NCBI GenBank assembly: GCA_041738495.1
Contig: JBGSPR010000011.1
Location: forward strand, 1,495 to 65,494
Source: Patescibacteria group bacterium
GTDB lineage: Bacteria > Patescibacteriota > Patescibacteriia > PEXW01
Length of the DNA stretch: 64,000 bases
Reading direction: 5' to 3'
Notes under the pieces: generated by a model
What the model was told of the DNA's origin: nothing
What the model saw: only the letters and a program-made list of their open reading frames with translations
The model's database searches: none
Made by a program: the position numbers and the translations under genes
Part shown: piece after piece, positions 4,981 to 25,490 of the stretch
How the letters are laid out: every line of letters starts with the position of its first letter
Numbering within the stretch: the stretch's first letter is position 1

Positions 4981-5241
4981 CAGCGGGTATCCTCCAGGAA
5001 TGCAAAGCGTTGTAACACATTATAGCATTCCCTTTGGCATCGACGGCATTGGTGCGTGGTGGCACGTCTGGATGGTGCCAGCACTGGCGACCCTCATCCT
5101 GCTCGTGAGTCTGCTCTGGTTGCTCCCATTCCTCCGACGTCGCCAACCTGGAACGGTGAGCCTCATTCACACCTCTTCATTCCTGTGCAGCGCTGGTGTT
5201 GCCTGGGGAATTTTCCTCCTGCGTGTCCAGCAGGTTCCTGT

Positions 5242-6291
5242 ATGATCGACAACTACACAGTCATTCGCCTCTTCTTCCTGGCAACCGTGTCGTTCATCGT
5301 CGCCATGGCGTTCACGCCGCTCTGGGCAGGTGTGCTCTACCGCTACCGGTTGGGGAAGAAGATTCGTGCGGCGGCTGATGCCCCCGTGTTCGCGAAGTTC
5401 CATGAGAAGAAGTCTGGAACCCCAACCATGGGCGGGGTCATTGTGTGGCTCACTGCGTTCGTCATTGCCGTGCTGTTCTTCCTCATCCGCCAAATCATCC
5501 CGTCTGGGTTCTGGCACGAGCTCAACTTCCTCACCCGGCAGCAGACCTGGCTCCCCATAGGTGCTCTGGTTGCGTCGGCGCTTGTCGGCTTGGTTGACGA
5601 TTACTTCAACGTTCGGGGTTGGGGCCCGAAAGGTGGCGGACTGCAGGTGCGGCACAAGCTACTCATCTACTCGGCGATCGCTGTGGTCGGGGCGTGGTGG
5701 TTCTTCGCCAAGCTCGGCTTCAGCACCATGCACGTCCCATTCCTCGGAAACTTTGAAATTGGCTGGTGGTACGTGCCGCTCTTCATTGTCGTCATCGTTT
5801 CCACGGCGTTCTCGGTAAACGAAGTGGATGGCCTCGATGGATTGGCCGGGGGAACGCTACTCGCAGCATTCGTGGCATTCGGTGCGATTGCCTTCGTGCA
5901 GGATCGTTTCGAGCTCGCCACGTTCTGCGCGGTCATTGCTGGCGCCTTGCTCGCCTTCCTCTGGTTCAACATCCCACCCGCCCGCTTCTTCATGGGGGAT
6001 ACGGGTGCGATGTCGCTGGGCGTAACCTTAGGTATCGTTGCCATGCTCACGAATACCGCGCTGCTCTTGCCAGTCATTGGGTTGCTGTTCGTCGTGGAAT
6101 CCGCCAGCGTCATTATCCAGGTCGTCTCCAAACGCTTCCGCGGGGTGAAGGTTTTCCAATCAGCGCCGCTCCACCACCACCTCGAAGCCATTGGCTGGCC
6201 AGAGGCGAAGATCGTCATGCGATTCTGGGTTATTGCGGCGGTTACTGCGGTCATTGGCGTCGTCCTGTACCTCGTCGACCACACGCTGTAA
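5242..6291 (+). CDS. mraY: Phospho-N-acetylmuramoyl-pentapeptide transferase MraY
   Basis: Start MIDNYTVIRLFFL at the internal ATG 5242 of ORF 5056..6291; 10-TM MraY signature. The upstream 62 codons look non-coding (divergent promoter region). Confidence 0.92.
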   Translation: MIDNYTVIRLFFLATVSFIVAMAFTPLWAGVLYRYRLGKKIRAAADAPVFAKFHEKKSGTPTMGGVIVWLTAFVIAVLFFLIRQIIPSGFWHELNFLTRQQTWLPIGALVASALVGLVDDYFNVRGWGPKGGGLQVRHKLLIYSAIAVVGAWWFFAKLGFSTMHVPFLGNFEIGWWYVPLFIVVIVSTAFSVNEVDGLDGLAGGTLLAAFVAFGAIAFVQDRFELATFCAVIAGALLAFLWFNIPPARFFMGDTGAMSLGVTLGIVAMLTNTALLLPVIGLLFVVESASVIIQVVSKRFRGVKVFQSAPLHHHLEAIGWPEAKIVMRFWVIAAVTAVIGVVLYLVDHTL

Positions 6292-6332: not shown

Positions 6333-8423
6333 ATGCAGGCTTTTCAGTCCGCGATGCTTGCGGGACTCCCAGGCATAACGCACGGGACTGCATCCCGGTT
6401 CGCACAACCGCTCACCTTTTCTGGCCACCCTGTTCGTCGAGTGCGTGAAGCTCGACGACGCTTCTGCACATCCCTGGGAATTTCGCCAGATCACCTCACG
6501 CTAGGTCGTCAGGTGCACGGAGCCCGTGTTCGCGTCGTGACGGAATCCCACCGTGGCGCGGGAAGCGGCGACCCGGCAACCTACCTAGCCAGCACAGGCG
6601 GTTTACTCACCCAGCGTCCCGGTATTGCCTTGGGAGTGTTCACTGCCGATTGCGTGCCCGTACTCTTGCACGACCCAGTAACCGGGTGGATTGGAGCACT
6701 GCACGTTGGGTGGCGCGGGGCAGTGGCAGGAATCGTTCGTGCCGCAACACACCAGCTCACGCAGCACGGTGTAGACGTTCGTGATGTACGCGTGTGGCTA
6801 GGTCCAGCCATCTGTGGACGCTGCTTCTCTTTCGATAGTGCATCGCAAGCCAAGGATCTCCGCCGAGCATTCTCTGGCGTGGCCGTCCGTGCCCGTGCGG
6901 GTGGCTACACCGCAGATCTCCGCGCGGGCATTCGCCAGCAGTTCATCCGCCTCGGGTACCGCGCTCGTTCCATCGACGTTTCCCCCACGTGCACTGCCGA
7001 GAATCCTGCACTCCCATCCCGACGACGAGATGGCCCAACGCACGCGAATACGCTCAGTGTTATTACGCGGAATGCACTCCCGGGTGACCTGCGTGGAGCG
7101 ACCGTAGCAATCCTCGGCTTCGGCGTGCAGGGAGGAGGGGAATCTGCCCTGCGCTACGCGCTCCGCTCATACGCACAGGAAATTCTCGTTGTGGATGACC
7201 AGCCCCTCCGCACGTTCACAAAAGCTCGGCGTGCGTACCGCGACGTGCGCGTGCGCTGGATGTGCGGTTCGCGTGCAGCGAGTGCGCCGGCACGCGTCGA
7301 CGTTGTCGTGAAGAATCCTGGCGTACCACTCGACCACCCGTACCTGAAACGCGCGCGTGCGGCTGGGGCGCAAGTGTGGACGGACATTGGGATTTTCCGG
7401 GCAACCCATGACAACCCCATTATCGCAGTTACCGGCACGAAGGGAAAAACGACGGTGGCGACGTGGTTAGCCTACGTACTGCGGGCAACGCACCAACGCG
7501 TGGAGCTCGCAGGGAACGTGCGGCGCTCGCCGCTCGACATCGTCAACCTCCCACCTACAACGCCCGTTGTCCTGGAACTCTCGTCGTTCCAGCTGGAAGC
7601 GCTGGAGCAGCCGTTGCGCGCGCGCCTCGCAGTAGTAACCAATCTCTACCCCGACCACCTCAATCGTCACGTGACTATGCGGGCGTACGCGCAGGTGAAA
7701 TCCCGCATTGCAGATGGGCAGAGCCCGCAGGACGCGCTCATCTTGCCTCTGGATAGTGCGTGGGCGCGCAATTACCAAGGTCGTTCGAGAGCGCGCACTT
7801 TGTGGACGGACGCGAAGCCGAACCGTCGCGCGCAGGCGATGGTGCGGGGCGGCTGGATTGTGGTTCGTGGGAAGCGGCTTGTGGAAACGCGTACGCTCCT
7901 GCTCCAGGATGCAGCTAGTCTTCGCAATGCAGTGACGGTCGCACTCGCGGCTATTGAACTGGGTGTGCCGAGAAAGCACGTCGTGGCCCGTCTTCGCTCG
8001 TTCCGCGGTGTACCTGAACGTTTCGAAACCATTCGGGAATTCCGTACGCGGAGGTTCATCAACGATACAACAGCAACGAATCCCGTGGCCACCGCCGTGG
8101 GTTTGCAGAGCGTGCGCAAAGCATTCGTGCTCATTGCAGGAGGTGCGGACAAGGGGTTGCCACTCACGCCGCTCGTCCAGCAAGCGCGCCGCGCTCGAGC
8201 GGTTATCTTGCTGCCTGGCACTGCAACGCCTCGCCTTGCTCGCGCACTGCGCGGGCATCCAGTTGTCCGCGTGGGCTCCATGCGTGCTGCCGTTCAACGA
8301 GCCTGGGGCGCGTCACAGCCAGGGGATGCGATCATCTTGTCACCTGGCGCCGCGAGTTTCGGCCTGTTCACGAATGAGTTTGACCGAGGCGCTCAGTTCA
8401 CCGCTGCAGTGCGCGCGCTATGA
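6333..8423 (+). CDS. murD: Fusion protein: N-terminal PgeF/YfiH (DUF152, Cu-oxidase_4, peptidoglycan editing factor) joined to UDP-N-acetylmuramoyl-L-alanine--D-glutamate ligase MurD
   Basis: Continuous frame from ATG 6333 (MQAFQSAMLAGLPGITHGTASRF..., PgeF-like, including a C-terminal SRRRDG motif). MurD starts with no linker at about 7098 (ATVAILGFGVQGG ... VTGTKGKTT Mur ligase P-loop) and ends with ATGA overlap into ftsW. Confidence 0.85.
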   Translation: MQAFQSAMLAGLPGITHGTASRFAQPLTFSGHPVRRVREARRRFCTSLGISPDHLTLGRQVHGARVRVVTESHRGAGSGDPATYLASTGGLLTQRPGIALGVFTADCVPVLLHDPVTGWIGALHVGWRGAVAGIVRAATHQLTQHGVDVRDVRVWLGPAICGRCFSFDSASQAKDLRRAFSGVAVRARAGGYTADLRAGIRQQFIRLGYRARSIDVSPTCTAENPALPSRRRDGPTHANTLSVITRNALPGDLRGATVAILGFGVQGGGESALRYALRSYAQEILVVDDQPLRTFTKARRAYRDVRVRWMCGSRAASAPARVDVVVKNPGVPLDHPYLKRARAAGAQVWTDIGIFRATHDNPIIAVTGTKGKTTVATWLAYVLRATHQRVELAGNVRRSPLDIVNLPPTTPVVLELSSFQLEALEQPLRARLAVVTNLYPDHLNRHVTMRAYAQVKSRIADGQSPQDALILPLDSAWARNYQGRSRARTLWTDAKPNRRAQAMVRGGWIVVRGKRLVETRTLLLQDAASLRNAVTVALAAIELGVPRKHVVARLRSFRGVPERFETIREFRTRRFINDTTATNPVATAVGLQSVRKAFVLIAGGADKGLPLTPLVQQARRARAVILLPGTATPRLARALRGHPVVRVGSMRAAVQRAWGASQPGDAIILSPGAASFGLFTNEFDRGAQFTAAVRAL

Positions 8424-9517
8424 CCGAGTACAGACGTCCAGACTCGCTCATGTTCGCGCTCGTCGTCCTGTTGTGCGTCTTCGGCATCATCATTTTTTCT
8501 TCGGCGAGTAGCGTCGTATCGTTCCAGTCGCTGGGCGACCCGAACGCGCTGTTGAAGAAGCAGGCAATTGCCCTGGTCTTGGGGTTGCTCCTCATGGTGG
8601 TTACCATGCGCTTAGATTTGCGCATCCTCGAGCGCTACGCGACCCCAATTTTCGTTCTCTCCATTGGGCTCATGCTGCTCCCTTTCGTGCCGGGCTTGGG
8701 ACCGGAGTACCTTGGCGCAAACCGATGGGTGTCATTCGGCGGGTTTTTCTTCCAGCCGTCGGAACTCGTCAAACTCACGACAGTTGTCTTCTTCGCTCGC
8801 TGGTTGCCAACGCTGCGTTTTGACCGAACGCTGCCGAAGGAAACGTTCCTTCCGTTCCTCGGTATTCTCAGCGTCATCGTGCTCATCCTCGTGTTGCAGC
8901 CAGACCTGGGAACAGCAATCGTCATCCTCGCAGTGAGCATCACCCTGTACTTCGCCGTTGGAGCTCCTGCGAAGCACTTCGGGTGGATCGCGGGCGTCGT
9001 TGCGATCGGCCTCATCCTGCTCATCCAAGTGGCTCCGTACCGAGCTGCACGGCTTACCGTCTTCCTCAACCCAGCGGATGACACGCAGGGTTCTGCGTAC
9101 CACATCAACCAGTCGCTACTCGCAATAGGGTCGGGAGGCCTCTTCGGCCGTGGACTCGGGCACTCCATTCAGAAGTTTAACTACCTCCCAGAAGCTGAGG
9201 GCGATTCCATTTTCGCGATTGCTGCTGAAGAGCTCGGGTTCTTCTTCAGCGTCGGCTTGGTTGCGCTGTACGTTGCCATTCTGTGGCGCGGCGTGCAACT
9301 GGCCAGACTGTCGACGGACATGCCGGTGAAACTCACTATCGCTGGCATCGTCACGTGGTTCGGCGTGCAGGCGTTCATCAACATCGGTGCGCTTACTTCT
9401 GTACTCCCGCTCACTGGAGAGCCGCTCCCGTTCGTGTCGAATGGTGGTTCTTCCCTGGTCATTTCTCTCATTGCAGTTGGCGTACTCCTCAACTACTCGC
9501 GTACAATACGAACATGA
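8420..9517 (+). CDS. ftsW: SEDS-family peptidoglycan glycosyltransferase FtsW/RodA
   Basis: 365 aa, 10 TM, FtsW/RodA motifs; ATGA overlaps with murD upstream and murG downstream. Confidence 0.85.
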   Translation: MTEYRRPDSLMFALVVLLCVFGIIIFSSASSVVSFQSLGDPNALLKKQAIALVLGLLLMVVTMRLDLRILERYATPIFVLSIGLMLLPFVPGLGPEYLGANRWVSFGGFFFQPSELVKLTTVVFFARWLPTLRFDRTLPKETFLPFLGILSVIVLILVLQPDLGTAIVILAVSITLYFAVGAPAKHFGWIAGVVAIGLILLIQVAPYRAARLTVFLNPADDTQGSAYHINQSLLAIGSGGLFGRGLGHSIQKFNYLPEAEGDSIFAIAAEELGFFFSVGLVALYVAILWRGVQLARLSTDMPVKLTIAGIVTWFGVQAFINIGALTSVLPLTGEPLPFVSNGGSSLVISLIAVGVLLNYSRTIRT

Positions 9518-10566
9518 GTACGTTTCTCTTGGTTGGTGGAGGTACGCTGGGTTCGGTGAACCCCCTGCTGGCTTTTGCTGCAGCCCTACGCGAGCAACAC
9601 CCGCACGTACGCTGCGTGTTCTGGGGGCCGCGGAGCTCGCGTGATCGACGTGTGGTTGAGGAATCGGGTTTACCGTACCGTAGCCTCCCTGCGGGGAAGC
9701 TGCGTCGGTACTTTTCGTTGAGGACCCTCGTGGACATCCCGGTCATTGCATGGGCGGTCGTCGTCGCGTGGGTGCGCTTACGCGCCGAACGCCCAAACCT
9801 CGTCGTTACCGCTGGGAGCTACGTTGCAGTTCCGGTTGCGTGGGCTGCAGCACTCCACCGCATTCCCGTGCTGCTCTACCAGCAAGATGCAACACTCGGT
9901 TTCGCGAATCGCCTCATCCTCCGGGTTGCACGGGTGCGCGCCGCTACGGCAGAAGGACCAGCCCACCTTCTCCCCGCGCCGGTAACGACCGTTGGATTCG
10001 CGCTGCGTCCCGACCTCCGCGCGGGCGACGCTCAACGAGCAGCGCGTGCGTACCATCTCGACCCACGCCGGTGCACGGTACTCGTCATCGGTGGAAGCTC
10101 TGGCGCGCGTGAACTCAACGAACGCTTCGTCGCAGCCCTGCCACACCTCGATCCTGCTGTACAAGCGGTGCACGTGACAGGCTCGGGGAAAGAGGGGACC
10201 GTCTCACGACCAGGGTACGTGCAGATACCTTTCACCAATGCAGGCCTCCCCGACTTGTACGCGCTCGCAACGCTCGTGGTGAGTAGGGCGGGGAGTAATG
10301 TCCTGGCTGAACTCATTGCCCTGGCGAAGCCAATGGTCGTGGTACCGCTTCCCGGAACGCACCAAGTGCAGAATGCCGCATCGCTAGAAGAGCGTGGTAT
10401 ACCTGTGCTGGATCAAGCTTCGCTCACGCCAGAGCACTTCGCTTCGGTTCTCAACGATACGTGCCACGACGGGCAACGTCTGGAGACCCTGCGGCGGGCA
10501 GTAGCAGGACTGTGGGATACTGATGGCGCGCGAGCGCTCGTCACGTTGGTCAAACCTTACGTATGA
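9514..10566 (+). CDS. murG: Undecaprenyldiphospho-muramoylpentapeptide beta-N-acetylglucosaminyltransferase MurG
   Basis: Start MSTFLLVGGGTLGSVNPLLA at ATG 9514 (internal to ORF 9283..10566); GT28 motifs. Confidence 0.9.
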   Translation: MSTFLLVGGGTLGSVNPLLAFAAALREQHPHVRCVFWGPRSSRDRRVVEESGLPYRSLPAGKLRRYFSLRTLVDIPVIAWAVVVAWVRLRAERPNLVVTAGSYVAVPVAWAAALHRIPVLLYQQDATLGFANRLILRVARVRAATAEGPAHLLPAPVTTVGFALRPDLRAGDAQRAARAYHLDPRRCTVLVIGGSSGARELNERFVAALPHLDPAVQAVHVTGSGKEGTVSRPGYVQIPFTNAGLPDLYALATLVVSRAGSNVLAELIALAKPMVVVPLPGTHQVQNAASLEERGIPVLDQASLTPEHFASVLNDTCHDGQRLETLRRAVAGLWDTDGARALVTLVKPYV

Positions 10567-11945
10567 ACCTACACTCCGCCACACACGTCCACGTCATTGG
10601 TATCGGTGGTATTGGCGTTTCCGCGCTTGCGAAGTGGTGCTTGGAGCGTGGCGCTACGGTGAGTGGGAGCGATGCCGTTGAGACGCCGCAAACCACGTGG
10701 TTCCGGGCGCACGGCGCTGTCGTGCACATTGGCCAGCACGCCGCTGCGCACGTTCCCAGTGCGTGTGACCTCGTGCTCGCGTCGGTTGCGGTGCGTGAAG
10801 AAAATTCCGAGTGGCAAGCAGCAGTCACTCGACGGATTCCCATCTTGCCGTACCCCGTGGCTCTCGCACAGCTCTTCGAAGGTACGCACGGCATTGCAGT
10901 AGCCGGTACGCATGGGAAGTCCACCACGACCGCACTCTTGGGAACCACCCTCATTGCAGCGGGTTTCGACCCAACGGTCATCGTTGGAACGCGTGTCCGT
11001 GAATTTGGCAACACCAACGAGCGCGTTGGCGCGAGTGATGTGGTGCTGGCGGAAGTCGACGAGTACAACCAAGCGATCTTGCAAGTGCAGCCCACGCACG
11101 CGGTTGTCCTGAACGTGGACCACGAGCACGTAGATGTGTACGAAACATTGGAAAAACTGCAGAGTGCTTTTGGTCGGTTCGTCGCCAGCGTACCGAAGAA
11201 TGGAACGGTCACGCTCTGGGCAGATGACCCGAGCACGCCCCTCCTTCGTGAACGCGTGCAAGGGGAGGTACGCACGTTTGGCTTTGGGGACGCAGACCTC
11301 GTCGCGCGCGACATTATCACCTCTGCCTCGGGTACGGCCTTCTCCGTGCAGGGTTTGTACCGCGGCACCGTGCGCACCAAGCTCTTCGGCGAGCACAACG
11401 TGCGGAACGTTCTTGCCGCACTGTGCGTTGCTCACGCGCTGGGAACGCCCTTCGACGTTGCTGTAGCGGCAATGAGCACCTTCCCAGGAACGTGGCGACG
11501 ATTTGAGCACCGCGGCCTCTGGCGTGGCGCAACGATCATCGATGATTACGCGCACCACCCAACCGAACTCCGCGCTACGCTCGCGGCTGCACGACAGGCA
11601 TTCCCAGGGAAGCGCATCACTTGCGTTTTCCAGCCCCACCTGCACAGCCGAACGCTCGCATTCTTCCCGAACTTCGTCCGCGAGTTGCAAGCTGCGGATC
11701 ACGTGGTGCTCGTGGAAGTCTACGACGTACTTGGTCGAGATGTGGGTCCGCGCACATCGAGCGCAGAACTCGCTCGAGCGGTCGGGAACGATGCAGCGTT
11801 CGTTCCAACGGTGCGCGATGCTGTGCGCTACCTCGAATCGCGCGTCACCTCTACGGATGTGGTACTCACCGTTGGTGCCGGTGACATCACGTCGTTTGCC
11901 TCACTCGCGCAAAATGAAAAGCCCTCCGCAGCGCAGGAGGGCTAG
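10563..11945 (+). CDS. murC: UDP-N-acetylmuramate--L-alanine ligase MurC
   Basis: 460 aa; HVIGIGGIGVSALA N-terminal Rossmann fold and GTHGKSTTT P-loop. Confidence 0.9.
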   Translation: MNLHSATHVHVIGIGGIGVSALAKWCLERGATVSGSDAVETPQTTWFRAHGAVVHIGQHAAAHVPSACDLVLASVAVREENSEWQAAVTRRIPILPYPVALAQLFEGTHGIAVAGTHGKSTTTALLGTTLIAAGFDPTVIVGTRVREFGNTNERVGASDVVLAEVDEYNQAILQVQPTHAVVLNVDHEHVDVYETLEKLQSAFGRFVASVPKNGTVTLWADDPSTPLLRERVQGEVRTFGFGDADLVARDIITSASGTAFSVQGLYRGTVRTKLFGEHNVRNVLAALCVAHALGTPFDVAVAAMSTFPGTWRRFEHRGLWRGATIIDDYAHHPTELRATLAAARQAFPGKRITCVFQPHLHSRTLAFFPNFVRELQAADHVVLVEVYDVLGRDVGPRTSSAELARAVGNDAAFVPTVRDAVRYLESRVTSTDVVLTVGAGDITSFASLAQNEKPSAAQEG

Positions 11946-12940
11946 ATGGGAATGTACGTGAAGAGTGTCTGCTGGTACTGGACACTCGCGTTGTAGGGAA
12001 TGTGCTGGCGAACAATGCGGCACCGAACAGGTGCGGTTACCCGCTCTTCAATGCTCCCCATGAGGAGCCACACACTCCCCAGATGCGTGCCTGGCTCGAC
12101 GACGCTCCCCACGAAGGTTTTTGCGTGTTCTTCAGCTGGGCGGAAGAATCCTGCGTAGTCGCCTTGGTACGTGAGCTCGCGCATATCGTGAGGGGTGCCC
12201 AGCAGCATTGCGCAGGCGAGGGACGCGAGTTCGGTGTACGGTTGTGCGCCGAACTGCAGGATGAAGCCGGACGTGGGAGCGGTGACCACTGTCGCTCGGT
12301 GCAAGCCCGTGCGAGAGCGAATCGAGCCCACCGGGTCGCCTGCTGCGACGAAGTCTCCAACGAAGACGTTTCGGTAACCTCGATTCCAGTACTTTCGGTG
12401 CGGGACGAGGTGACGGGCGTGAGCGAGGCCGGTTGCGTTTTCGACGATTGCGGGTAACCAGGTTCCTCCACCTGGTACGGTAACCGGCGTGATGTCGACG
12501 GGGATGGTGAGCAGCGGTGGTTGCCCCACAATCCAGTTCGCCGTAGCCGGGAACTGCAAACCCTCGGGGTACTGCGGATCATTCTCCGGAAAGTAGTAGG
12601 TGAGTTGGCCGTTTTCCACGAAGACCGTCTGTCGCATCGCGTTCTGCCCCCGCGTCGCCGGAGCTTGGAGGGCGTACCCATGCGGTACCCGTGATTGCGA
12701 GGGAGTTCGCCGAACGGTTACTGCGCTCAGCACAGACCGGACCACGAGTTCGCTCACGTTGCGCTCTTCGGCCAGCGCTACAATGCGCTGCGCTCGTCGG
12801 AAGTGCCGGTAGTGGAAAATACCGAGGATTACCCCAACGAACAGGCAGCCAGCGGTAAATCCGCCAATAGCAAACCAACCGTGCGTTTGCGCGAGTGCTT
12901 CCAGCCAGTGGAGGAAGCGCTCGATGCTTTGGAAATGCAC
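11942..12940 (-). CDS. Membrane-anchored hypothetical protein, possibly phosphatidylserine-decarboxylase-like fold (very tentative)
   Basis: 332-aa ORF with perfect GGAGG SD 7 nt upstream of the ATG at 12940, N-terminal TM helix, no confident family. Lies convergent to murC with overlapping stops (CTAG). Confidence 0.5.
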   Translation of the reverse strand: MHFQSIERFLHWLEALAQTHGWFAIGGFTAGCLFVGVILGIFHYRHFRRAQRIVALAEERNVSELVVRSVLSAVTVRRTPSQSRVPHGYALQAPATRGQNAMRQTVFVENGQLTYYFPENDPQYPEGLQFPATANWIVGQPPLLTIPVDITPVTVPGGGTWLPAIVENATGLAHARHLVPHRKYWNRGYRNVFVGDFVAAGDPVGSIRSRTGLHRATVVTAPTSGFILQFGAQPYTELASLACAMLLGTPHDMRELTYQGDYAGFFRPAEEHAKTFVGSVVEPGTHLGSVWLLMGSIEERVTAPVRCRIVRQHIPYNASVQYQQTLFTYIPI

Positions 12941-12951
12941 TCTTTCCTCCT

Positions 12952-12979
12952 TTGGTGTTCATGTAAATTGCGCTATAGT
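12952..12979 (+). promoter_or_regulatory. Candidate promoter for murB (TTGGTG-16-TATAGT) in the divergent spacer between the hypothetical gene and murB
   Basis: gcgcTATAGTat at 12974-12979 shares the gCTATAgT core with the promoters at 21151 and 39755. Confidence 0.35.
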
Positions 12980-13004
12980 ATATCGGCCAGCGCTCTGGCT
13001 GTCA

Positions 13005-13913
13005 ATGAATGACGCGCGTACACAACTCGAACGCCTTCCCGGAGTGAAGGTACGTGAACCACTCGCTCCGCATACCACCTTTCAAGTTGGGGGTCCGGCG
13101 GCATTCTTCGTATCGACGAATGACGTGCCCCTGCTCCAGCGCGCCGTTCGCGCTGCACGAGCAGCAGGTCTACCCGTCGCCGCGCTGGGCGGCGGCAGCA
13201 ACACGCTCGTTGCTGACACGGGTTTCCCAGGACTCATTGTCCACCTCACCTCAACGCGTTGCGAGGCACGCGATGATGGCCAGGTCGAAGCTGATGCTGG
13301 CACACCGCTCAGTCGCGTCGTGCGCACAGCAATTAGTAAAAACCTCACTGGCTTAGAATTTGCGGTCGGCATCCCCGGGTCGTTCGGTGGAGCACTGGCT
13401 GGCAATGCTGGCACGGGTGGGCACGGCGTGAGCGAGCGCGTCGAGCAGGTGACGTACCTCGACGATAGAGGTGAGTTGCGTACCTGCGATAGGACGAGTC
13501 TCGATGTATCCTACCGCTACACTCGCTTCAAGTACTCGACGACTGACATTATCGTTAGCGCGCGGCTCAAACTGGCGATAGACACTCCAACAGAAATTCA
13601 GATGAGAGTTCGGGAAGCAGTTGACCGACGCTCCTGGCAACCGAAGGGTGCGTGGTGCGCTGGTTGCGTGTTCAAAAATCCAGCGAATGGGCATGCGGGC
13701 AAGCTCATCCAGGATGCTGGGTTGAAAGGAAAGAAAATCGGCGGTGCCATGGTATCGCCTGACCACGCGAATTTCGTGACGAACACGGGCAATGCCACCG
13801 CTGAGGATATCGTCATCCTCATTAGTTACATCAAGCAGCAGGTGCGTGACCAGTTTGGCGTTCAGTTGGAAGAAGAAGTTCGGTACCTTGGCTTCGATTC
13901 TCCTCCCGCGTAA
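13005..13913 (+). CDS. murB: UDP-N-acetylenolpyruvoylglucosamine reductase MurB
   Basis: Start MNDARTQLERLPGVKV at ATG 13005; FAD-binding GGGSN motif; MurB C-terminal domain. Confidence 0.88.
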   Translation: MNDARTQLERLPGVKVREPLAPHTTFQVGGPAAFFVSTNDVPLLQRAVRAARAAGLPVAALGGGSNTLVADTGFPGLIVHLTSTRCEARDDGQVEADAGTPLSRVVRTAISKNLTGLEFAVGIPGSFGGALAGNAGTGGHGVSERVEQVTYLDDRGELRTCDRTSLDVSYRYTRFKYSTTDIIVSARLKLAIDTPTEIQMRVREAVDRRSWQPKGAWCAGCVFKNPANGHAGKLIQDAGLKGKKIGGAMVSPDHANFVTNTGNATAEDIVILISYIKQQVRDQFGVQLEEEVRYLGFDSPPA

Positions 13914-22306: not shown

Positions 22307-23842
22307 ATGGCCGTTATTGATCTTTCTGGTCTCGTTACGGACTTTCAGAGTTCGTCGGGTAACCCAGCTTCGATGTTCTGGTTCATCTTCCGCAATGGAG
22401 GGTGGCTTGGCGTTGTCATTACCTTACTCGCGGGCTTCAAGTTCTCGTGGCTAGAGTACATCCAGCGTCGGTACATTGCGAAGAACTACGATGGGAAGTA
22501 CGTGGTGCTAGCTATTGACTCACCCAAGAACACCGAGCAAACCCCGAAAGCTGCTGAGCAAATGTTCGCGCACTTTGCGGGCATATCGAAAGGTCCAATT
22601 TTTTCTGAAAAGTGGGGCTTGCCGTTTACCGAATTCTGGAGTTACGGGTTTGTCCCGCCGTCCATGTCTGTTGAAATCGCGAGTCTCGGAGGGTACGTGC
22701 AATTCTTCGTGCGATGTCTCATCGCCCAGCGAGACATCATTGAGGCTGCAGTGTACGCGCAGTACCCTGATGCTGAAATTACCGAAGTTGAAGACTACGT
22801 TGATCTCATGCCGAAACCTCGTGAACTCCCTCACGCCGAATGGGATTGCTGGTCTGCACAGATTTCTTTCCTGCGCCATTCTGCGTACCCCATTCGAACC
22901 TACCCCATGTTCGAGCACGGACTCTCTCAGAAGCTCATCGATCCTATTGCACCACTCATGGAGGTGATGAGTCGCATTAGTCCTGACGAGCAGATGTGGG
23001 TGCAGTGGGTGCTCCAGCAGGACTACCCGCCTGACGAGTGGCGAGAGAAGGGTGAGGGCATTGTCATGAAGCTCATTGGGAAAAAGGGGAAGGCTCCAGC
23101 GAACCCTTGGGATATACCCCGCAAGCTCGGGAAAGATGTATGGGAAGCGGGTACCGCTTCGCTCTTGGGGATTAACCCAGAAAATGAAAGGCAGAAGAAG
23201 GACGATCCTCCTTCCCTCATGCTCCACCTCTCTCCCGGCGAGCGTGACACGGTGACGCAGATGCAGATGAAGCTCTCCAAGGTCGCCTTCAAGTGCAAGA
23301 TGCGCTACATCTACTGGGGGAAAATAACTCCCGGACCGGATGGAAAGAAACCTTTCAATAAGGCTCGTGGTGTGAATGGGTTCCTAGGTTGGCTACGGCA
23401 ATTTGCGATTTCCGACTCGAACTTGTTCAGCGTCTACAAGCAGACGAAAACCGGCGACATCATTTGGTTCAAGAACATGCGCATGCTCGATCGTAAGCGC
23501 CGTAACTTGTACAACTTCCGTAACCGTTCTGCGTGGCGTGGGCGTAAGCCAATTTTCCTCACTGTTGAAGAAATGGCAACGCTCTTTCACTTCCCAATTA
23601 TCGACGTGAAGGCAGCGCAGGTAATGAAGACGGAAACCAAGCGCGCCGGCGCTCCAACGAGTCTCCCGGTTGAAAACCCACTACCCATCCAGAGAGTACG
23701 GGGTGTGAACCTGCAACCCCCACCAGTTGCCGAGCCGCGCGAACCAGCGCTACCCCTCGCGCCCGCCGCCCCTCCCGGTGGCCAAGCTTCGCCTGCCGCG
23801 AAAGAACCGGAAGTGCCCGTCAATCTCCCATTCGTCGAGTAG
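22307..23842 (+). CDS. Membrane-anchored hypothetical protein (single N-terminal TM, large extracytoplasmic or cytoplasmic domain, Pro-rich C-terminus)
   Basis: 511 aa; hydrophobic segment FWFIFRNGGWLGVVITLLAGF; no recognisable family; stop 1 nt before the downstream ATPase start. Confidence 0.5.
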   Translation: MAVIDLSGLVTDFQSSSGNPASMFWFIFRNGGWLGVVITLLAGFKFSWLEYIQRRYIAKNYDGKYVVLAIDSPKNTEQTPKAAEQMFAHFAGISKGPIFSEKWGLPFTEFWSYGFVPPSMSVEIASLGGYVQFFVRCLIAQRDIIEAAVYAQYPDAEITEVEDYVDLMPKPRELPHAEWDCWSAQISFLRHSAYPIRTYPMFEHGLSQKLIDPIAPLMEVMSRISPDEQMWVQWVLQQDYPPDEWREKGEGIVMKLIGKKGKAPANPWDIPRKLGKDVWEAGTASLLGINPENERQKKDDPPSLMLHLSPGERDTVTQMQMKLSKVAFKCKMRYIYWGKITPGPDGKKPFNKARGVNGFLGWLRQFAISDSNLFSVYKQTKTGDIIWFKNMRMLDRKRRNLYNFRNRSAWRGRKPIFLTVEEMATLFHFPIIDVKAAQVMKTETKRAGAPTSLPVENPLPIQRVRGVNLQPPPVAEPREPALPLAPAAPPGGQASPAAKEPEVPVNLPFVE

Positions 23843-23843
23843 C

Positions 23844-25490
23844 ATGCACGACCCCACGAGTATCAACGTCTTCGCCGAAACAAACTACCGCGGACAGCAC
23901 CGGCGTTTTGGCATTAAGGTTGACGACCGACGCCGTCACATGTACTTGGTTGGGAAAACTGGTATGGGCAAGTCGACGGTTATGGAGCGCATGATCGTCA
24001 ATGACATGGTTGCTGGCCACGGTTTGGCGTTGGTTGACCCGCACGGCGACTTGGTGGAAAAAATGCTGCAGTACGTACCAGACCATCGCGTGAACGACGT
24101 CGTGTACTTCAACCCGTCGGACATCGAACACCCGATTGGGTTCAACGTGCTCGAGGCAGTTGATGCAGTGCAGCGACACCTCGTGGCGTCTGGGCTCATG
24201 GGCGTCTTCACGAAGATTTGGGAAGGGGTGTGGAGCGCGCGCATGGAGTACATTCTGAATAACACCATCCTCGCACTGCTCGAGTACCCAGGATCAACAA
24301 TGCTCGGCATCGCGCGCATGCTCGTCGATGGTCGGTACCGCACTCGCGTACTCACCAAAGTGACCGACCCAATTGTGAAGGGGTTTTGGGTGGATGAATT
24401 TGCAAATTACAACGATAAGTTTAGGAATGAGGCTGTGGCGCCTATCCAGAACAAGGTTGGTCAGTTCCTCTCCAGCGCAATCATCCGGAATATCGTTGGT
24501 CAGCCGAAGAGCACCATCGACCTGCGCGACATCATGGACTCGAAGAAAATTCTCCTCCTCAACTTAGCGAAAGGCCGTATTGGTGAGGACAACTCGCGTT
24601 TGCTCGGTGCCATGATGATTACCCGGTTGCAGCTCGCAGCCATGAGTCGTGTGGATATCCCAGAGCCAGAGCGCAGCGACTTTTTCCTCTACGTCGATGA
24701 GTTCCAGAACTTCGCGACGGTGAGCTTCGCGAACATTCTCTCCGAAGCCCGTAAGTACCGACTCAACCTCATCATCGCGCACCAGTACATCGAGCAGCTC
24801 GATGAGAAAGTAGCCCCGGCGGTGTTCGGTAACGTGGGAACCATCATGGCCTTTCGCGTTGGTGGAGCCGATGCAGAGTTTTTGGAAAAAGAGTTCTTCC
24901 CAACGTTCCTGCAAACTGATTTGGTGAATTTGCCGAAGTACGAAGTCTACCTCAAGCTCATGATCGATGGCGTTGCCTCGGAACCGTTTAGCGCCACGAC
25001 CCTCCCACCGACGGAGCTCATCCAGACCAATAATTGGGAGAAAGTAGTTGCCGTATCGCGAGAACGGTACGCACAACGACGTGCAGAAGTGGAGGAAAAA
25101 ATTCTTCGCTGGAGTGGCGTGGAAGATGTGTACCGTTCTGCGGCGCAGGAAGAGAATCTCGCAGCGCAGCAGGAGGAATCCATTTACCGTCCTGAGGGGA
25201 AGCGGCGTCGACCCCCGAAGGATTTATTCCAACGCGACAGCGTAGTGGTGGAGCCCGTCGTGAAGGGTGAGGAGCAGCCCTCGCTTCGTCTCGCTGACCT
25301 CATCCAGCAGCAACCCAGCGCGCCCACTCCTCCACGTCCCGTTACCTCACCACAGTCTCCGGTAGAGCAAAATTCACAGCAAGCGCAGCCAGCGCCCGAG
25401 CGTCCTCAGCAACAAGGGTATCGACCGCAGCGGCCAGATCGGCGACGGCCGCAACGGATGACGCCGTTCGGGAATACTGTGCGTTTCTAG
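23844..25490 (+). CDS. VirD4/TraD/TraG-like type IV coupling protein (T4CP) family P-loop ATPase with Pro/Gln-rich C-terminal tail
   Basis: Start MHDPTSINVF at ATG 23844; Walker A LVGKTGMGKST; Walker B LYVDEFQNF; conserved RKYRLNLIIAHQ motif typical of T4CP/TrwB-like ATPases. Confidence 0.75.
   Translation: MHDPTSINVFAETNYRGQHRRFGIKVDDRRRHMYLVGKTGMGKSTVMERMIVNDMVAGHGLALVDPHGDLVEKMLQYVPDHRVNDVVYFNPSDIEHPIGFNVLEAVDAVQRHLVASGLMGVFTKIWEGVWSARMEYILNNTILALLEYPGSTMLGIARMLVDGRYRTRVLTKVTDPIVKGFWVDEFANYNDKFRNEAVAPIQNKVGQFLSSAIIRNIVGQPKSTIDLRDIMDSKKILLLNLAKGRIGEDNSRLLGAMMITRLQLAAMSRVDIPEPERSDFFLYVDEFQNFATVSFANILSEARKYRLNLIIAHQYIEQLDEKVAPAVFGNVGTIMAFRVGGADAEFLEKEFFPTFLQTDLVNLPKYEVYLKLMIDGVASEPFSATTLPPTELIQTNNWEKVVAVSRERYAQRRAEVEEKILRWSGVEDVYRSAAQEENLAAQQEESIYRPEGKRRRPPKDLFQRDSVVVEPVVKGEEQPSLRLADLIQQQPSAPTPPRPVTSPQSPVEQNSQQAQPAPERPQQQGYRPQRPDRRRPQRMTPFGNTVRF

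What the first reader, a model, noticed from the sequence alone, without database searches (positions are those of the whole stretch)
6333..8423. PgeF (YfiH, peptidoglycan editing factor) translationally fused to MurD inside the dcw cluster
A single uninterrupted frame encodes an N-terminal DUF152/Cu-oxidase_4 domain (MQAFQSAMLAGLPGITHGT...HVGWRGAVAGIV...CGRCFSFD...SRRRDGPTHANTLSVI), immediately followed with no linker by MurD (ATVAILGFGVQGG...VTGTKGKTT...). PgeF has been reported to hydrolyse mis-charged UDP-MurNAc-Ser/Gly made by MurC. MurD is the very next enzyme, acting on UDP-MurNAc-L-Ala. A physical fusion of the editing enzyme to the next ligase would channel proof-read product, and it supports the editing-factor role over the alternative purine-nucleoside-phosphorylase role proposed for this family. 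PgeF normally sits downstream of ftsZ rather than between mraY and murD.
Basis: partly seen in the sequence, partly recalled or inferred. Interest (0 to 1): 0.65.

Follow-up and report, generated by a model that had tools for sequence, protein, structure and literature searches.

The report
Natural PgeF–MurD fusion enzyme in Patescibacteria
One gene in a candidate-phyla-radiation bacterium really does join the cell-wall proofreading enzyme PgeF to the next ligase, MurD; this chimera recurs in related genomes, has not been described before, and adds comparative evidence for PgeF's cell-wall role rather than a new kind of biology.

Summary
Window 6333-8423 (+) is one 696-aa ORF: a PF02578/PgeF domain (residues 35-243, E 1e-49), then a full MurD (NCBIfam TIGR01087, 354 bits against a cutoff of 212).

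It is not an assembly artefact. At least 27 protein clusters from independent metagenomes carry the same fusion, at 35-63% identity, with a gap-free junction and the same synteny (mraY, fusion, ftsW, murG, murC, murB). All come from Kerfeldbacteria-like Patescibacteria.

Three other lineages have separate pgeF and murD genes 2-37 nt apart, the likely precursor state. NJ trees show at least two fused lineages and one secondary in-frame loss of the PgeF domain.

The catalytic His-Cys-His residues, Gln69 and the UDP-binding residues are invariant. This window's copy, however, has Gly at Asp89, and D89A abolishes editing in E. coli.

The most likely function is a bifunctional proofreading amidase plus D-Glu ligase, co-expressed 1:1.

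No paper describes this chimera, and a 2023 survey of Mur chimeras omits it. I rate it a new variant of a known kind, of moderate interest.

The parts
6333..8423 (+). Single ORF (696 aa plus stop) encoding the PgeF-MurD chimera
   Evidence: An identical protein is in NCBI (P0001). There are 24 fused clusters and 3 more.
6333..7070 (+). PgeF (YfiH/YlmD, PF02578) domain, residues 1-246. It is the CPR-type variant, with a shortened N-terminal region that lacks the RxGGxS...NLG...GD motif.
   Evidence: Pfam 169 bits. TIGR00726 scores 136 bits against a cutoff of 141. PDB sequence hits to YlmD and YfiH at 1e-24. Foldseek TMt 0.81-0.83, rmsd 1.8-2.0, to 6t0y, 6dzd and 7fbg. The N-terminal variant is shared with standalone CPR PgeFs.
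6651..6653 (+). TGC codon for the catalytic Cys107, within the motif FTADCVP. Residue numbering coincides with E. coli at this position.
   Evidence: Read from the sequence. Invariant in all 25 fused proteins. C107A abolishes editing in E. coli (PMC8844914, PMC12280929).
6597..6599 (+). GGC codon = Gly89, where 24 of 25 fused relatives and all standalone PgeFs examined have Asp (E. coli Asp89 of the Cys-His-Asp triad). It differs from GAC by one base.
   Evidence: D89A abolishes editing in E. coli (PMC12280929).
7071..7100 (+). Junction, residues 247-256 (NALPGDLRGA). There is no stop, no conserved internal start, and no gap across the family.
   Evidence: Alignment A1. pLDDT about 94 across this segment.
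7101..8420 (+). [quoted passage not shown] The P-loop GTKGKTT lies at residues 367-373 (7431-7451).
   Evidence: TIGR01087 at 354-356 bits against a cutoff of 212. PDB MurD hits at 2e-47. Foldseek TMt 0.87, rmsd 3.1, to closed E. coli MurD.
5056..6291 (+). Upstream mraY. The listed 411-aa ORF starts at a GTG; relatives are 348-350 aa, so the true start is probably further downstream.
8420..9517 (+). Downstream ftsW. Its ATG overlaps the fusion's TGA (ATGA), which indicates translational coupling.
9283..13913 (+). Rest of the dcw segment: murG (ends 10566), murC (10563-11945), a conserved unknown ORF on the minus strand (11942-12940), and murB (12924-13913).
   Evidence: The same order is seen in L001-L003, L017 and L019.

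Best explanation
The gene encodes a bifunctional peptidoglycan-precursor enzyme.

- N-terminal domain: a PgeF-type Cys-His(-Asp) amidase. It hydrolyses mis-ligated UDP-MurNAc-L-Ser/Gly made by MurC back to UDP-MurNAc.
- C-terminal part: the genome's MurD, which adds D-Glu to UDP-MurNAc-L-Ala.

Origin. The fusion arose in Kerfeldbacteria-like Patescibacteria from a pre-existing arrangement in which pgeF sat immediately upstream of murD. Loss of the intervening stop joined them through a very short, ordered junction.

Likely benefit. The fusion guarantees 1:1 co-expression and co-localisation of the editor with the enzyme that would otherwise commit a wrong monopeptide to the pathway. This matters because PgeF prefers monopeptide substrates, so editing has to win a kinetic race against MurD.

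What is shown and what is inferred.
- Shown: domain identities, conservation of the fusion, conservation of catalytic residues, gene neighbourhoods, and gain and loss in phylogeny.
- Inferred: both activities, and the proximity or stoichiometry advantage.
- Caveat: in this window's copy, Gly at the Asp89 position may weaken or abolish editing.
For: Domain assignments. The AF2 model has pLDDT 91.5 and pTM 0.84, and Foldseek matches both folds.

Conservation of the fusion:
- 24 fused clusters plus P0286, P0388 and P0390.
- Only 6 of 185,579 GTDB species representatives were recovered carrying it, all Patescibacteria-like MAGs; the scan used two peptide patterns, so this is a lower bound.
- One open frame in every locus.
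- PgeF and MurD halves are equally conserved within group A, at 50.2% and 51.6% mean pairwise identity.

Residues. Gln69, His71, Asp106, Cys107, His124, Trp127 and Arg228/229 equivalents are invariant in all 25 fused proteins, and Asp89 is present in 24 of 25. In E. coli these residues are required for editing but not for PNP activity.

Unfused precursor state. pgeF, murD and ftsW occur in that order with gaps of 37, 2 and 8 nt in three other lineages, and both genes score above the NCBIfam equivalog cutoffs.

Literature. PgeF prefers UM-monopeptides and acts in the cytoplasm. Mur chimeras in general are linked to stoichiometry and complex assembly.
Against: - No enzymology exists for any member.
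- The window's copy has Gly89.
- The window's PgeF domain scores 5-9 bits below the NCBIfam PgeF equivalog cutoff.
- Tyr227, which stacks on MurNAc, is Arg here and Ala in most fused members. Arg235, the clamp for the amino-acid carboxylate, is not conserved as Arg in group A: it is His/Lys or Asn depending on the alignment. Substrate details may therefore differ from E. coli PgeF.
- E. coli PgeF shows no pulldown interaction with MurC or MurD.
- The PgeF domain was deleted in frame in one sub-lineage (P0027/28), and most Kerfeldbacteria MurDs are unfused. The fusion is therefore dispensable.
- I had no model coordinates or PAE, so the orientation of the two active sites is unknown.
Confidence: 0.65

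Rival explanations
1. Neutral or streamlining fusion. Both halves work as ordinary independent enzymes. The fusion is only a by-product of tightly packed or overlapping genes in small CPR genomes, with no kinetic or proofreading advantage.
For: - Separate pgeF and murD genes lie only 2-37 nt apart in other lineages, so a single stop-codon loss would be enough.
- The fusion appears in at least two lineages and was lost at least once.
- Another apparent dcw fusion, MurG plus a MurB domain, occurs in L019.
- Published Mur chimeras often join non-consecutive steps.
Against: - The junction is gap-free and about as conserved as the domains, at 49.9% identity. It is also predicted to be ordered, with overall pTM 0.84, which suggests a fixed two-domain unit.
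- Recurrent adjacency plus fusion of the same two genes points to selection for coupling.
Confidence: 0.25
2. The N-terminal domain is no longer an editing hydrolase, at least in this genome. It would serve instead as a UDP-MurNAc(-peptide) binding or regulatory module for MurD, or as a stabilising cap.
For: - The window copy has Gly at Asp89, and D89A abolishes editing in E. coli.
- Tyr227 and Arg235 are not conserved as in E. coli.
- PMC8844914 itself suggests that some DUF152 proteins may have kept binding but lost catalysis.
- The window's score is below the PgeF equivalog cutoff.
Against: - Cys107, His71, His124, Asp106 and Gln69 are invariant in all 25 fused proteins, and Asp89 is present in 24 of 25. 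That pattern is what purifying selection on catalysis would produce.
- Gly89 is a single-base autapomorphy. It could be a recent mutation or a consensus error.
Confidence: 0.08
3. Artefact: a sequencing or assembly error (frameshift, lost stop codon or chimeric contig) has joined two separate genes.
For: None beyond the prior possibility in a MAG-derived contig.
Against: - The same single frame occurs in more than 25 independent clusters from different projects and assemblers.
- The junction is gap-free down to 35-42% identity.
- GC content is uniform across the junction.
Confidence: 0.01
4. The N-domain acts in purine or other metabolism (purine nucleoside phosphorylase, adenosine deaminase or laccase), unrelated to MurD chemistry.
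For: PF02578 proteins, including YlmD and YfiH, show PNP activity in vitro (the 6t1b inosine complex; PMC6978800 listed).
Against: - The PNP activity of bacterial PgeF is weak, is independent of the conserved H-C-H and Asp residues, and has no physiological relevance in bacteria.
- Those same residues are invariant here.
- Fusion and adjacency are to murD, inside the dcw cluster.
Confidence: 0.02

Closest known systems
Standalone PgeF / YfiH / YlmD (PF02578, DUF152; E. coli P33644; PDB 7f3v, 7w1g, 6t0y, 7fbg)
   Same: - Same fold (TMt 0.81-0.83).
- Same catalytic Cys107, His71, His124 and Asp106.
- Same Gln69 specificity residue and the same Trp127 and Arg128/228 UDP contacts.
- 40-44% identity to annotated actinobacterial PgeFs.
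   Different: - Covalently joined to MurD.
- Has the CPR-type shortened N-terminal segment.
- Tyr227 and Arg235 are not conserved as in E. coli.
- The window copy lacks Asp89.
- Scores just under the NCBIfam equivalog cutoff.
MurD (TIGR01087; E. coli MurD structures 1uag-4uag, 2jfg)
   Same: Full three-domain ligase with the P-loop and the ELSSFQLE, DHLNRH, TATNP and SPGAASF motifs. It occupies the usual place between mraY and ftsW.
   Different: It carries a 246-residue N-terminal editing domain directly on the UDP-binding N-domain.
Catalogued Mur chimeras: MurE-MurF, MurC-Ddl, MurC-MurB, MurG-MurC, MurD-FtsW, MraY-MurG (PMC10214165; NCBIfam PRK11929, PRK11930, PRK14573 seen)
   Same: - A single polypeptide joins a Mur ligase to another dcw or peptidoglycan enzyme.
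- The join is head-to-tail without a linker, as in Bordetella MurE-MurF.
- It derives from adjacent genes.
   Different: - The partner is a proofreading hydrolase, not a biosynthetic enzyme.
- The combination is absent from that survey, which excluded unidentified species.
- It is confined to Kerfeldbacteria-like Patescibacteria.
Cis- and trans-editing in alanyl-tRNA synthetase (AlaRS editing domain versus free AlaX). This analogy was drawn by PMC12280929.
   Same: The error class is the same (Ser or Gly in place of Ala). The editor exists both as a free protein and as a fused domain.
   Different: The editor is fused to the downstream consumer (MurD), not to the error-making enzyme (MurC). 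No substrate translocation between sites has been shown. This is an analogy only, not homology.

Membership tests
PgeF / YfiH (PF02578; NCBIfam TIGR00726) | Pfam PF02578 match above the gathering score | tested here: met
   169.4 bits against 22.9, residues 35-243.
PgeF / YfiH (PF02578; NCBIfam TIGR00726) | NCBIfam PgeF equivalog score at or above 141.15 | tested here: not met
   132.4 bits for the whole protein and 135.7 for the domain alone. Fused relative P0286 passes at 144.5; P0390 does not, at 135.5.
PgeF / YfiH (PF02578; NCBIfam TIGR00726) | Conserved His-Cys-His (E. coli H71, C107, H124) plus Asp106 | tested here: met
   Invariant in the window protein and in all 25 fused proteins.
PgeF / YfiH (PF02578; NCBIfam TIGR00726) | Asp89 of the Cys-His-Asp triad (D89A abolishes editing in E. 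coli) | tested here: not met
   The window has Gly89 (GGC, 6597-6599). 24 of 25 fused relatives have Asp.
PgeF / YfiH (PF02578; NCBIfam TIGR00726) | Gln69 (hydrogen bond to the L-Ser hydroxyl) and UDP contacts Trp127, Arg128 and Arg228 | tested here: met
   Gln, Trp and Arg228 are invariant. Position 128 is Arg or Lys.
PgeF / YfiH (PF02578; NCBIfam TIGR00726) | Arg235 clamp on the amino-acid carboxylate, and Tyr227 stacking on MurNAc | tested here: inconclusive
   The position-235 equivalent is His/Lys or Asn in group A, depending on the alignment, and Arg in group B. Position 227 is Arg in the window and Ala in 17 of 25 fused proteins. Among standalones it is His, Tyr or Phe in most and Ala in 6 of about 190.
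PgeF / YfiH (PF02578; NCBIfam TIGR00726) | YfiH/YlmD fold | tested here: met
   Foldseek TMt 0.81-0.83, rmsd 1.8-2.0, to 6t0y, 6dzd and 7fbg.
PgeF / YfiH (PF02578; NCBIfam TIGR00726) | Hydrolysis of UDP-MurNAc-Ser/Gly but not UDP-MurNAc-Ala | not testable with these tools
   Needs enzymology.
MurD (NCBIfam TIGR01087) | Equivalog score at or above 211.95 over the full length | tested here: met
   354-356 bits, model positions 1-440 of 441.
MurD (NCBIfam TIGR01087) | Three-domain Mur ligase architecture with an ATP P-loop, and a MurD-like fold | tested here: met
   PF21799, PF08245 and PF02875. GTKGKTT motif. TMt 0.87 to E. coli MurD. Alignments to PDB MurDs.
MurD (NCBIfam TIGR01087) | dcw position between mraY and ftsW | tested here: met
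   The same synteny is seen in relatives.
Natural Mur chimeras (PMC10214165) | One polypeptide combining a Mur ligase with another peptidoglycan-pathway enzyme, conserved across species | tested here: met
Natural Mur chimeras (PMC10214165) | Belongs to one of the catalogued types (MurE-MurF, MurC-Ddl, MurC-MurB, MurG-MurC, MurD-FtsW, MraY-MurG) | tested here: not met
   PgeF-MurD is not listed, and the terms laccase and Patescibacteria do not occur in that paper.

The most novel reading that the evidence does not exclude
The fused PgeF domain could be a true cis-editing site built into a Mur ligase. UDP-MurNAc-monopeptide bound by MurD's UDP-binding N-domain would be sampled by the adjacent PgeF groove before D-Glu addition, or the mis-made dipeptide would be sampled afterwards, given the altered Arg235 and Tyr227 pocket. 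This would be an aaRS-like proofreading checkpoint inside non-ribosomal cell-wall peptide assembly. Its recurrent gain and loss would then track how error-prone each lineage's MurC is.
Probability: 0.15. Interest if true: 0.7.

Novelty: new variant of a known kind. Interest (0 to 1): 0.45.

Why it matters
PgeF's function was disputed for years: laccase, purine nucleoside phosphorylase, or peptidoglycan editor. Biochemistry now favours editing. This conserved natural fusion, together with recurrent pgeF-murD adjacency, is independent Rosetta-stone evidence that places PgeF at the MurC/MurD step.

The authors of the 2025 PNAS study looked for a PgeF-MurC/D interaction in E. coli and found none. 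These chimeras offer a ready-made system for testing whether physical coupling improves fidelity.

The finding also adds a new type to the list of Mur chimeras, the first that joins a ligase to a proofreading hydrolase. It further shows that CPR bacteria, whose cell walls are barely characterised, keep precursor editing.

In practical terms, these proteins are currently annotated only as MurD, so the editing domain goes unnoticed.

Tried and rejected
1. Artefact hypothesis. Rejected on cross-assembly conservation and uniform GC content.

2. The missing N-terminal RxGGxS...NLG...GD segment as a fusion-specific change. Rejected, because standalone CPR-type PgeFs (P0177, P0249, P0267, P0276 and others) share it.

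3. Arg235 as uniformly replaced by Asn in the fusion family, which I first read. A second alignment puts His/Lys at that column, so I downgraded this to 'not conserved as Arg; alignment-dependent'.

4. A single origin for all fusions. Not supported. In the MurD NJ tree, P0286 and P0388 fall inside an unfused clade (100/100) and all-fused monophyly gets 0/100. In the PgeF NJ tree, groups A and B are each monophyletic (83 and 93) but together score only 3/100. Deep nodes in NJ trees are weak, so the number of events stays open.

5. P0023, P0025 and P0026, which looked like short or unfused relatives. They are fusions truncated at contig ends.

6. Technical dead ends:
- The look-up of encoding contigs found no record for the window's own protein.
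- The first bootstrap run timed out.
- The afdb50 fold library was unavailable.
- The first literature search was swamped by noise.

7. A second pgeF copy. None was found in the 64-kb window or in the fetched loci. Whole genomes could not be scanned.

8. E. coli YfiH sequence. Its numbering reproduces every residue named in PMC8844914, and it hits gammaproteobacterial loci at 35-41% identity.
Full report
**1.

Window 6333-8423 (+) is one uninterrupted 696-codon frame.
- Pfam places PF02578 (Cu-oxidase_4 / DUF152, the YfiH-PgeF family) at residues 35-243 (169 bits).
- The three MurD domains lie at residues 257-671.
- NCBIfam scores the C-terminal part as murD at 354 bits (cutoff 212).
- The N-terminal part scores as PgeF at 132-136 bits, just below the 141-bit equivalog cutoff.
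- The nearest solved structures by sequence are YlmD/YfiH for the first 250 residues and MurD for the rest.
- An AlphaFold2 model built on 22 family members is confident: pLDDT 91.5, pTM 0.84, and about 94 across the junction.
- The two halves of the model superpose on PgeF/YlmD structures (TMt 0.81-0.83) and on closed E. coli MurD (TMt 0.87). No PDB entry spans both halves.

**2. Genomic setting**

The gene order is: T2SS/pilus genes and a PMT_2 glycosyltransferase on the minus strand, then mraY, the fusion, ftsW (its start overlaps the fusion's stop), murG, murC, an unknown minus-strand ORF, murB and secA. GC content is flat across the junction.

**3. It is not an artefact**

- A search of 5.8 billion protein clusters returned 24 clusters with the same four-domain architecture at 41-100% identity. 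They come from NCBI, JGI, ENA and Logan assemblies and are annotated, where named, only as MurD from Patescibacteria or Parcubacteria MAGs.
- A 22-sequence alignment has no gap at the junction, whose consensus is NTLTVIxRxAxPxDLRGKRVVVFGLGxQGGG.
- Relatives on long contigs, up to 1.07 Mb, show identical synteny.
- Six GTDB species representatives carry the fusion. Two of them are labelled 'uncultured Gammaproteobacteria' in their TPA records, which is probably a mislabel.
- Every fetched locus has one open frame across both domains.
- Three apparently shorter relatives are fusions cut off at contig ends.

**4. Distribution and evolution**

- phmmer of the PgeF domain against 1.84 billion representatives found about 19,600 family members. 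The window's own clade forms a tight group: 3 representatives at the 50% level, with scores of 217-309 bits against at most 135 for everything else. One more long protein, P0286, also appeared.
- P0286 is itself a PgeF-MurD fusion, 35% identical to the window protein, with the same synteny.
- A search seeded with P0286 found two more fused proteins, P0388 and P0390, all named Candidatus Kerfeldbacteria. It also found about 38 unfused MurDs of roughly 464 aa that are closer to P0286's MurD than P0390 is.

The NJ trees give the following picture.
- MurD domains: the window's group A forms a 100%-supported clade. That clade also contains the unfused Kerfeldbacteria MurDs P0027 and P0028, nested beside the fused P0021 and P0022 (198-200 of 200 replicates).
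- P0286 and P0388 sit inside the large unfused clade (100/100).
- Monophyly of all fused proteins gets 0/100.
- PgeF domains: group A (83/100) and group B (P0286, P0388, P0390; 93/100) are each monophyletic, but together they get only 3/100. In the reference tree, group B's sister is the standalone P0177.

P0027 keeps exactly the same synteny. Its 34-residue leader begins MLFNMAVFNLKK, which resembles the fused N-termini (MLLNMVFFQSKK in P0022). The simplest reading is an in-frame deletion of the PgeF domain.

My conclusion is at least two fused lineages (or one ancient fusion followed by many losses) and at least one clear secondary loss. NJ trees are crude, so I do not claim an exact count of events.

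**5. The precursor state exists**

Standalone CPR-type PgeFs share the fusion's shortened N-terminal region. In three of the four lineages I could inspect, that standalone gene lies directly upstream of murD, followed by ftsW:
- L020: 37-nt gap.
- L021/L022: 2-nt gap, within mraY, murI, a Na/Ca exchanger gene, pgeF, murD, ftsW, murG, murC, murB.
- L025/L026: murJ, pgeF, an 8-nt gap, murD, ftsW.

In these loci both proteins pass the NCBIfam equivalog cutoffs. The fourth standalone, P0370, is located elsewhere. The pgeF-murD association is therefore wider than the fusion itself, and the fusion is what stop-codon loss in such a pair would produce.

**6. Is the editing domain likely to be active?**

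The published residue roles are as follows.
- The E. coli YfiH structures with substrate define Cys107, His124 and Asp89 as the triad. His71 contacts the lactyl group, Gln69 hydrogen-bonds the Ser hydroxyl, Trp127, Arg128 and Arg228 bind UDP, Tyr227 stacks on MurNAc, and Arg235 clamps the amino-acid carboxylate.
- The 2025 PNAS study shows that mutating H71, D89, D106, C107 or H124 abolishes editing but leaves the weak PNP activity intact. It judges that PNP activity not physiological in bacteria.

In the 25 fused proteins:
- Gln69, His71, Asp106, Cys107, His124, Trp127 and Arg228/229 equivalents are invariant.
- Position 128 is Arg or Lys.
- Asp89 is present in 24 of them.
- The two halves are equally conserved, at 50.2% and 51.6% mean pairwise identity, and the linker at 49.9%.

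This pattern argues for a catalytically active editor across the family.

There are three caveats.
- The window's own protein has Gly89 (GGC at 6597-6599, one transition from GAC), and is the only member that does. It may be a real hypomorphic or null variant, or a consensus error.
- Tyr227 is Ala in 17 of 25 fused proteins and Arg in the window. Among standalones it is usually His, Tyr or Phe, and Ala in only 6 of about 190.
- Arg235 is retained in group B but not as Arg in group A, where its exact equivalent depends on the alignment. The amino-acid pocket may therefore differ from that of E. coli.

**7. Mechanism**

PgeF's product, UDP-MurNAc, feeds MurC, not MurD. PgeF and MurD share a substrate class, the UDP-MurNAc-monopeptides, and PgeF prefers the monopeptide form. 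Editing thus has to happen before MurD extends a wrong precursor.

Fusion fixes a 1:1 ratio and places the editor on MurD's UDP-binding N-domain through a short, ordered connection. This resembles a trans-editing factor becoming a cis-editing domain, an analogy PMC12280929 draws with AlaRS. The difference is that the editor is attached to the consumer, not to the error-maker.

Whether this gives any kinetic benefit beyond co-expression is unproven. The neutral-fusion alternative is credible for three reasons:
- the genes are tightly packed;
- other Mur chimeras join non-consecutive steps;
- the PgeF domain has been lost in some lineages.

**8. Novelty**

- Full-text searches for PgeF, YfiH, YlmD or DUF152 together with MurD or fusion found no description of this chimera.
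- The two key PgeF papers do not mention fusions. One reports a negative pulldown with MurC and MurD.
- The 2023 survey of natural Mur chimeras lists MurE-MurF, MurC-Ddl, MurC-MurB, MurG-MurC, MurD-FtsW and MraY-MurG. It excluded unidentified species, which would have removed these MAG proteins.
- None of the fused clusters lists UniRef among its sources.

I rate this as a new variant of a known kind: two well-known enzymes in a new, conserved combination.

**9. Verdict**

The fusion is real, conserved and correctly identified. It is a useful but not startling piece of comparative evidence, and a good experimental handle on PgeF-MurD coupling. Interest is 0.45. Confidence is 0.65 that the family encodes a bifunctional editor-ligase whose fusion serves coupling or stoichiometry. 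The explicit caveat is that this window's copy may have a crippled editing site.

Noticed in passing
L019:11175-13041: In the Kerfeldbacteria contig that carries the distant fusion P0286, the gene after ftsW is a 622-aa product. It has MurG domains (Glyco_transf_28 N and C) plus a FAD_binding_4 (MurB-type) domain and runs to the contig end. This may be a MurG-MurB chimera, with murC absent from its usual place.
   Followed up: no
L017:8001-9422 (P0027) and P0028: These unfused Kerfeldbacteria MurDs have a 34-residue leader, MLFNMAVFNLKK..., that resembles the N-terminus of the fused proteins. They nest inside the fused clade (198-200 of 200 bootstraps). This looks like a relic of an in-frame deletion of the PgeF domain.
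   Followed up: partly
window:18479-20182: The SecD homologue carries a PPIC-type peptidyl-prolyl isomerase (Rotamase) domain at residues 145-240, inserted between the SecD first P1 segment and the P1 head. This is an unusual translocon-chaperone fusion.
   Followed up: no
window:17061-18440: A 459-aa protein combines FG-GAP repeats with a C-terminal YkuD L,D-transpeptidase domain, next to the dcw and sec genes.
   Followed up: no
window:11942-12940 (-): A minus-strand ORF of about 330 aa with no Pfam hit lies between murC and murB. An ORF of similar size and orientation occupies the same place in L001 (13630-14604) and L017 (12929-13888). It appears to be a conserved unknown inside the dcw cluster.
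   Followed up: no
L021:4087-8159: In an unfused lineage, murI (glutamate racemase, which supplies D-Glu) sits between mraY and the pgeF-murD pair, separated from pgeF only by a Na/Ca exchanger gene. The D-Glu maker, the position-1 editor and the D-Glu ligase are therefore clustered.
   Followed up: no
window:5056-6291; L005, L006: The mraY ORF as listed is 411 aa from a GTG, but relatives are 348-350 aa, so the true start is probably downstream. The window is about 58-63% GC, which from memory is high for Patescibacteria. Two TPA assemblies that carry the fusion are labelled 'uncultured Gammaproteobacteria', probably a taxonomic mislabel.
   Followed up: no
window:21147-22298 and 23727-25490: One 383-aa protein has a sigma-70 region 4 and a HARE-HTH hit. 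A 587-aa protein resembles TrwB/TraG-type type IV coupling proteins. Both lie downstream of secDF.
   Followed up: no
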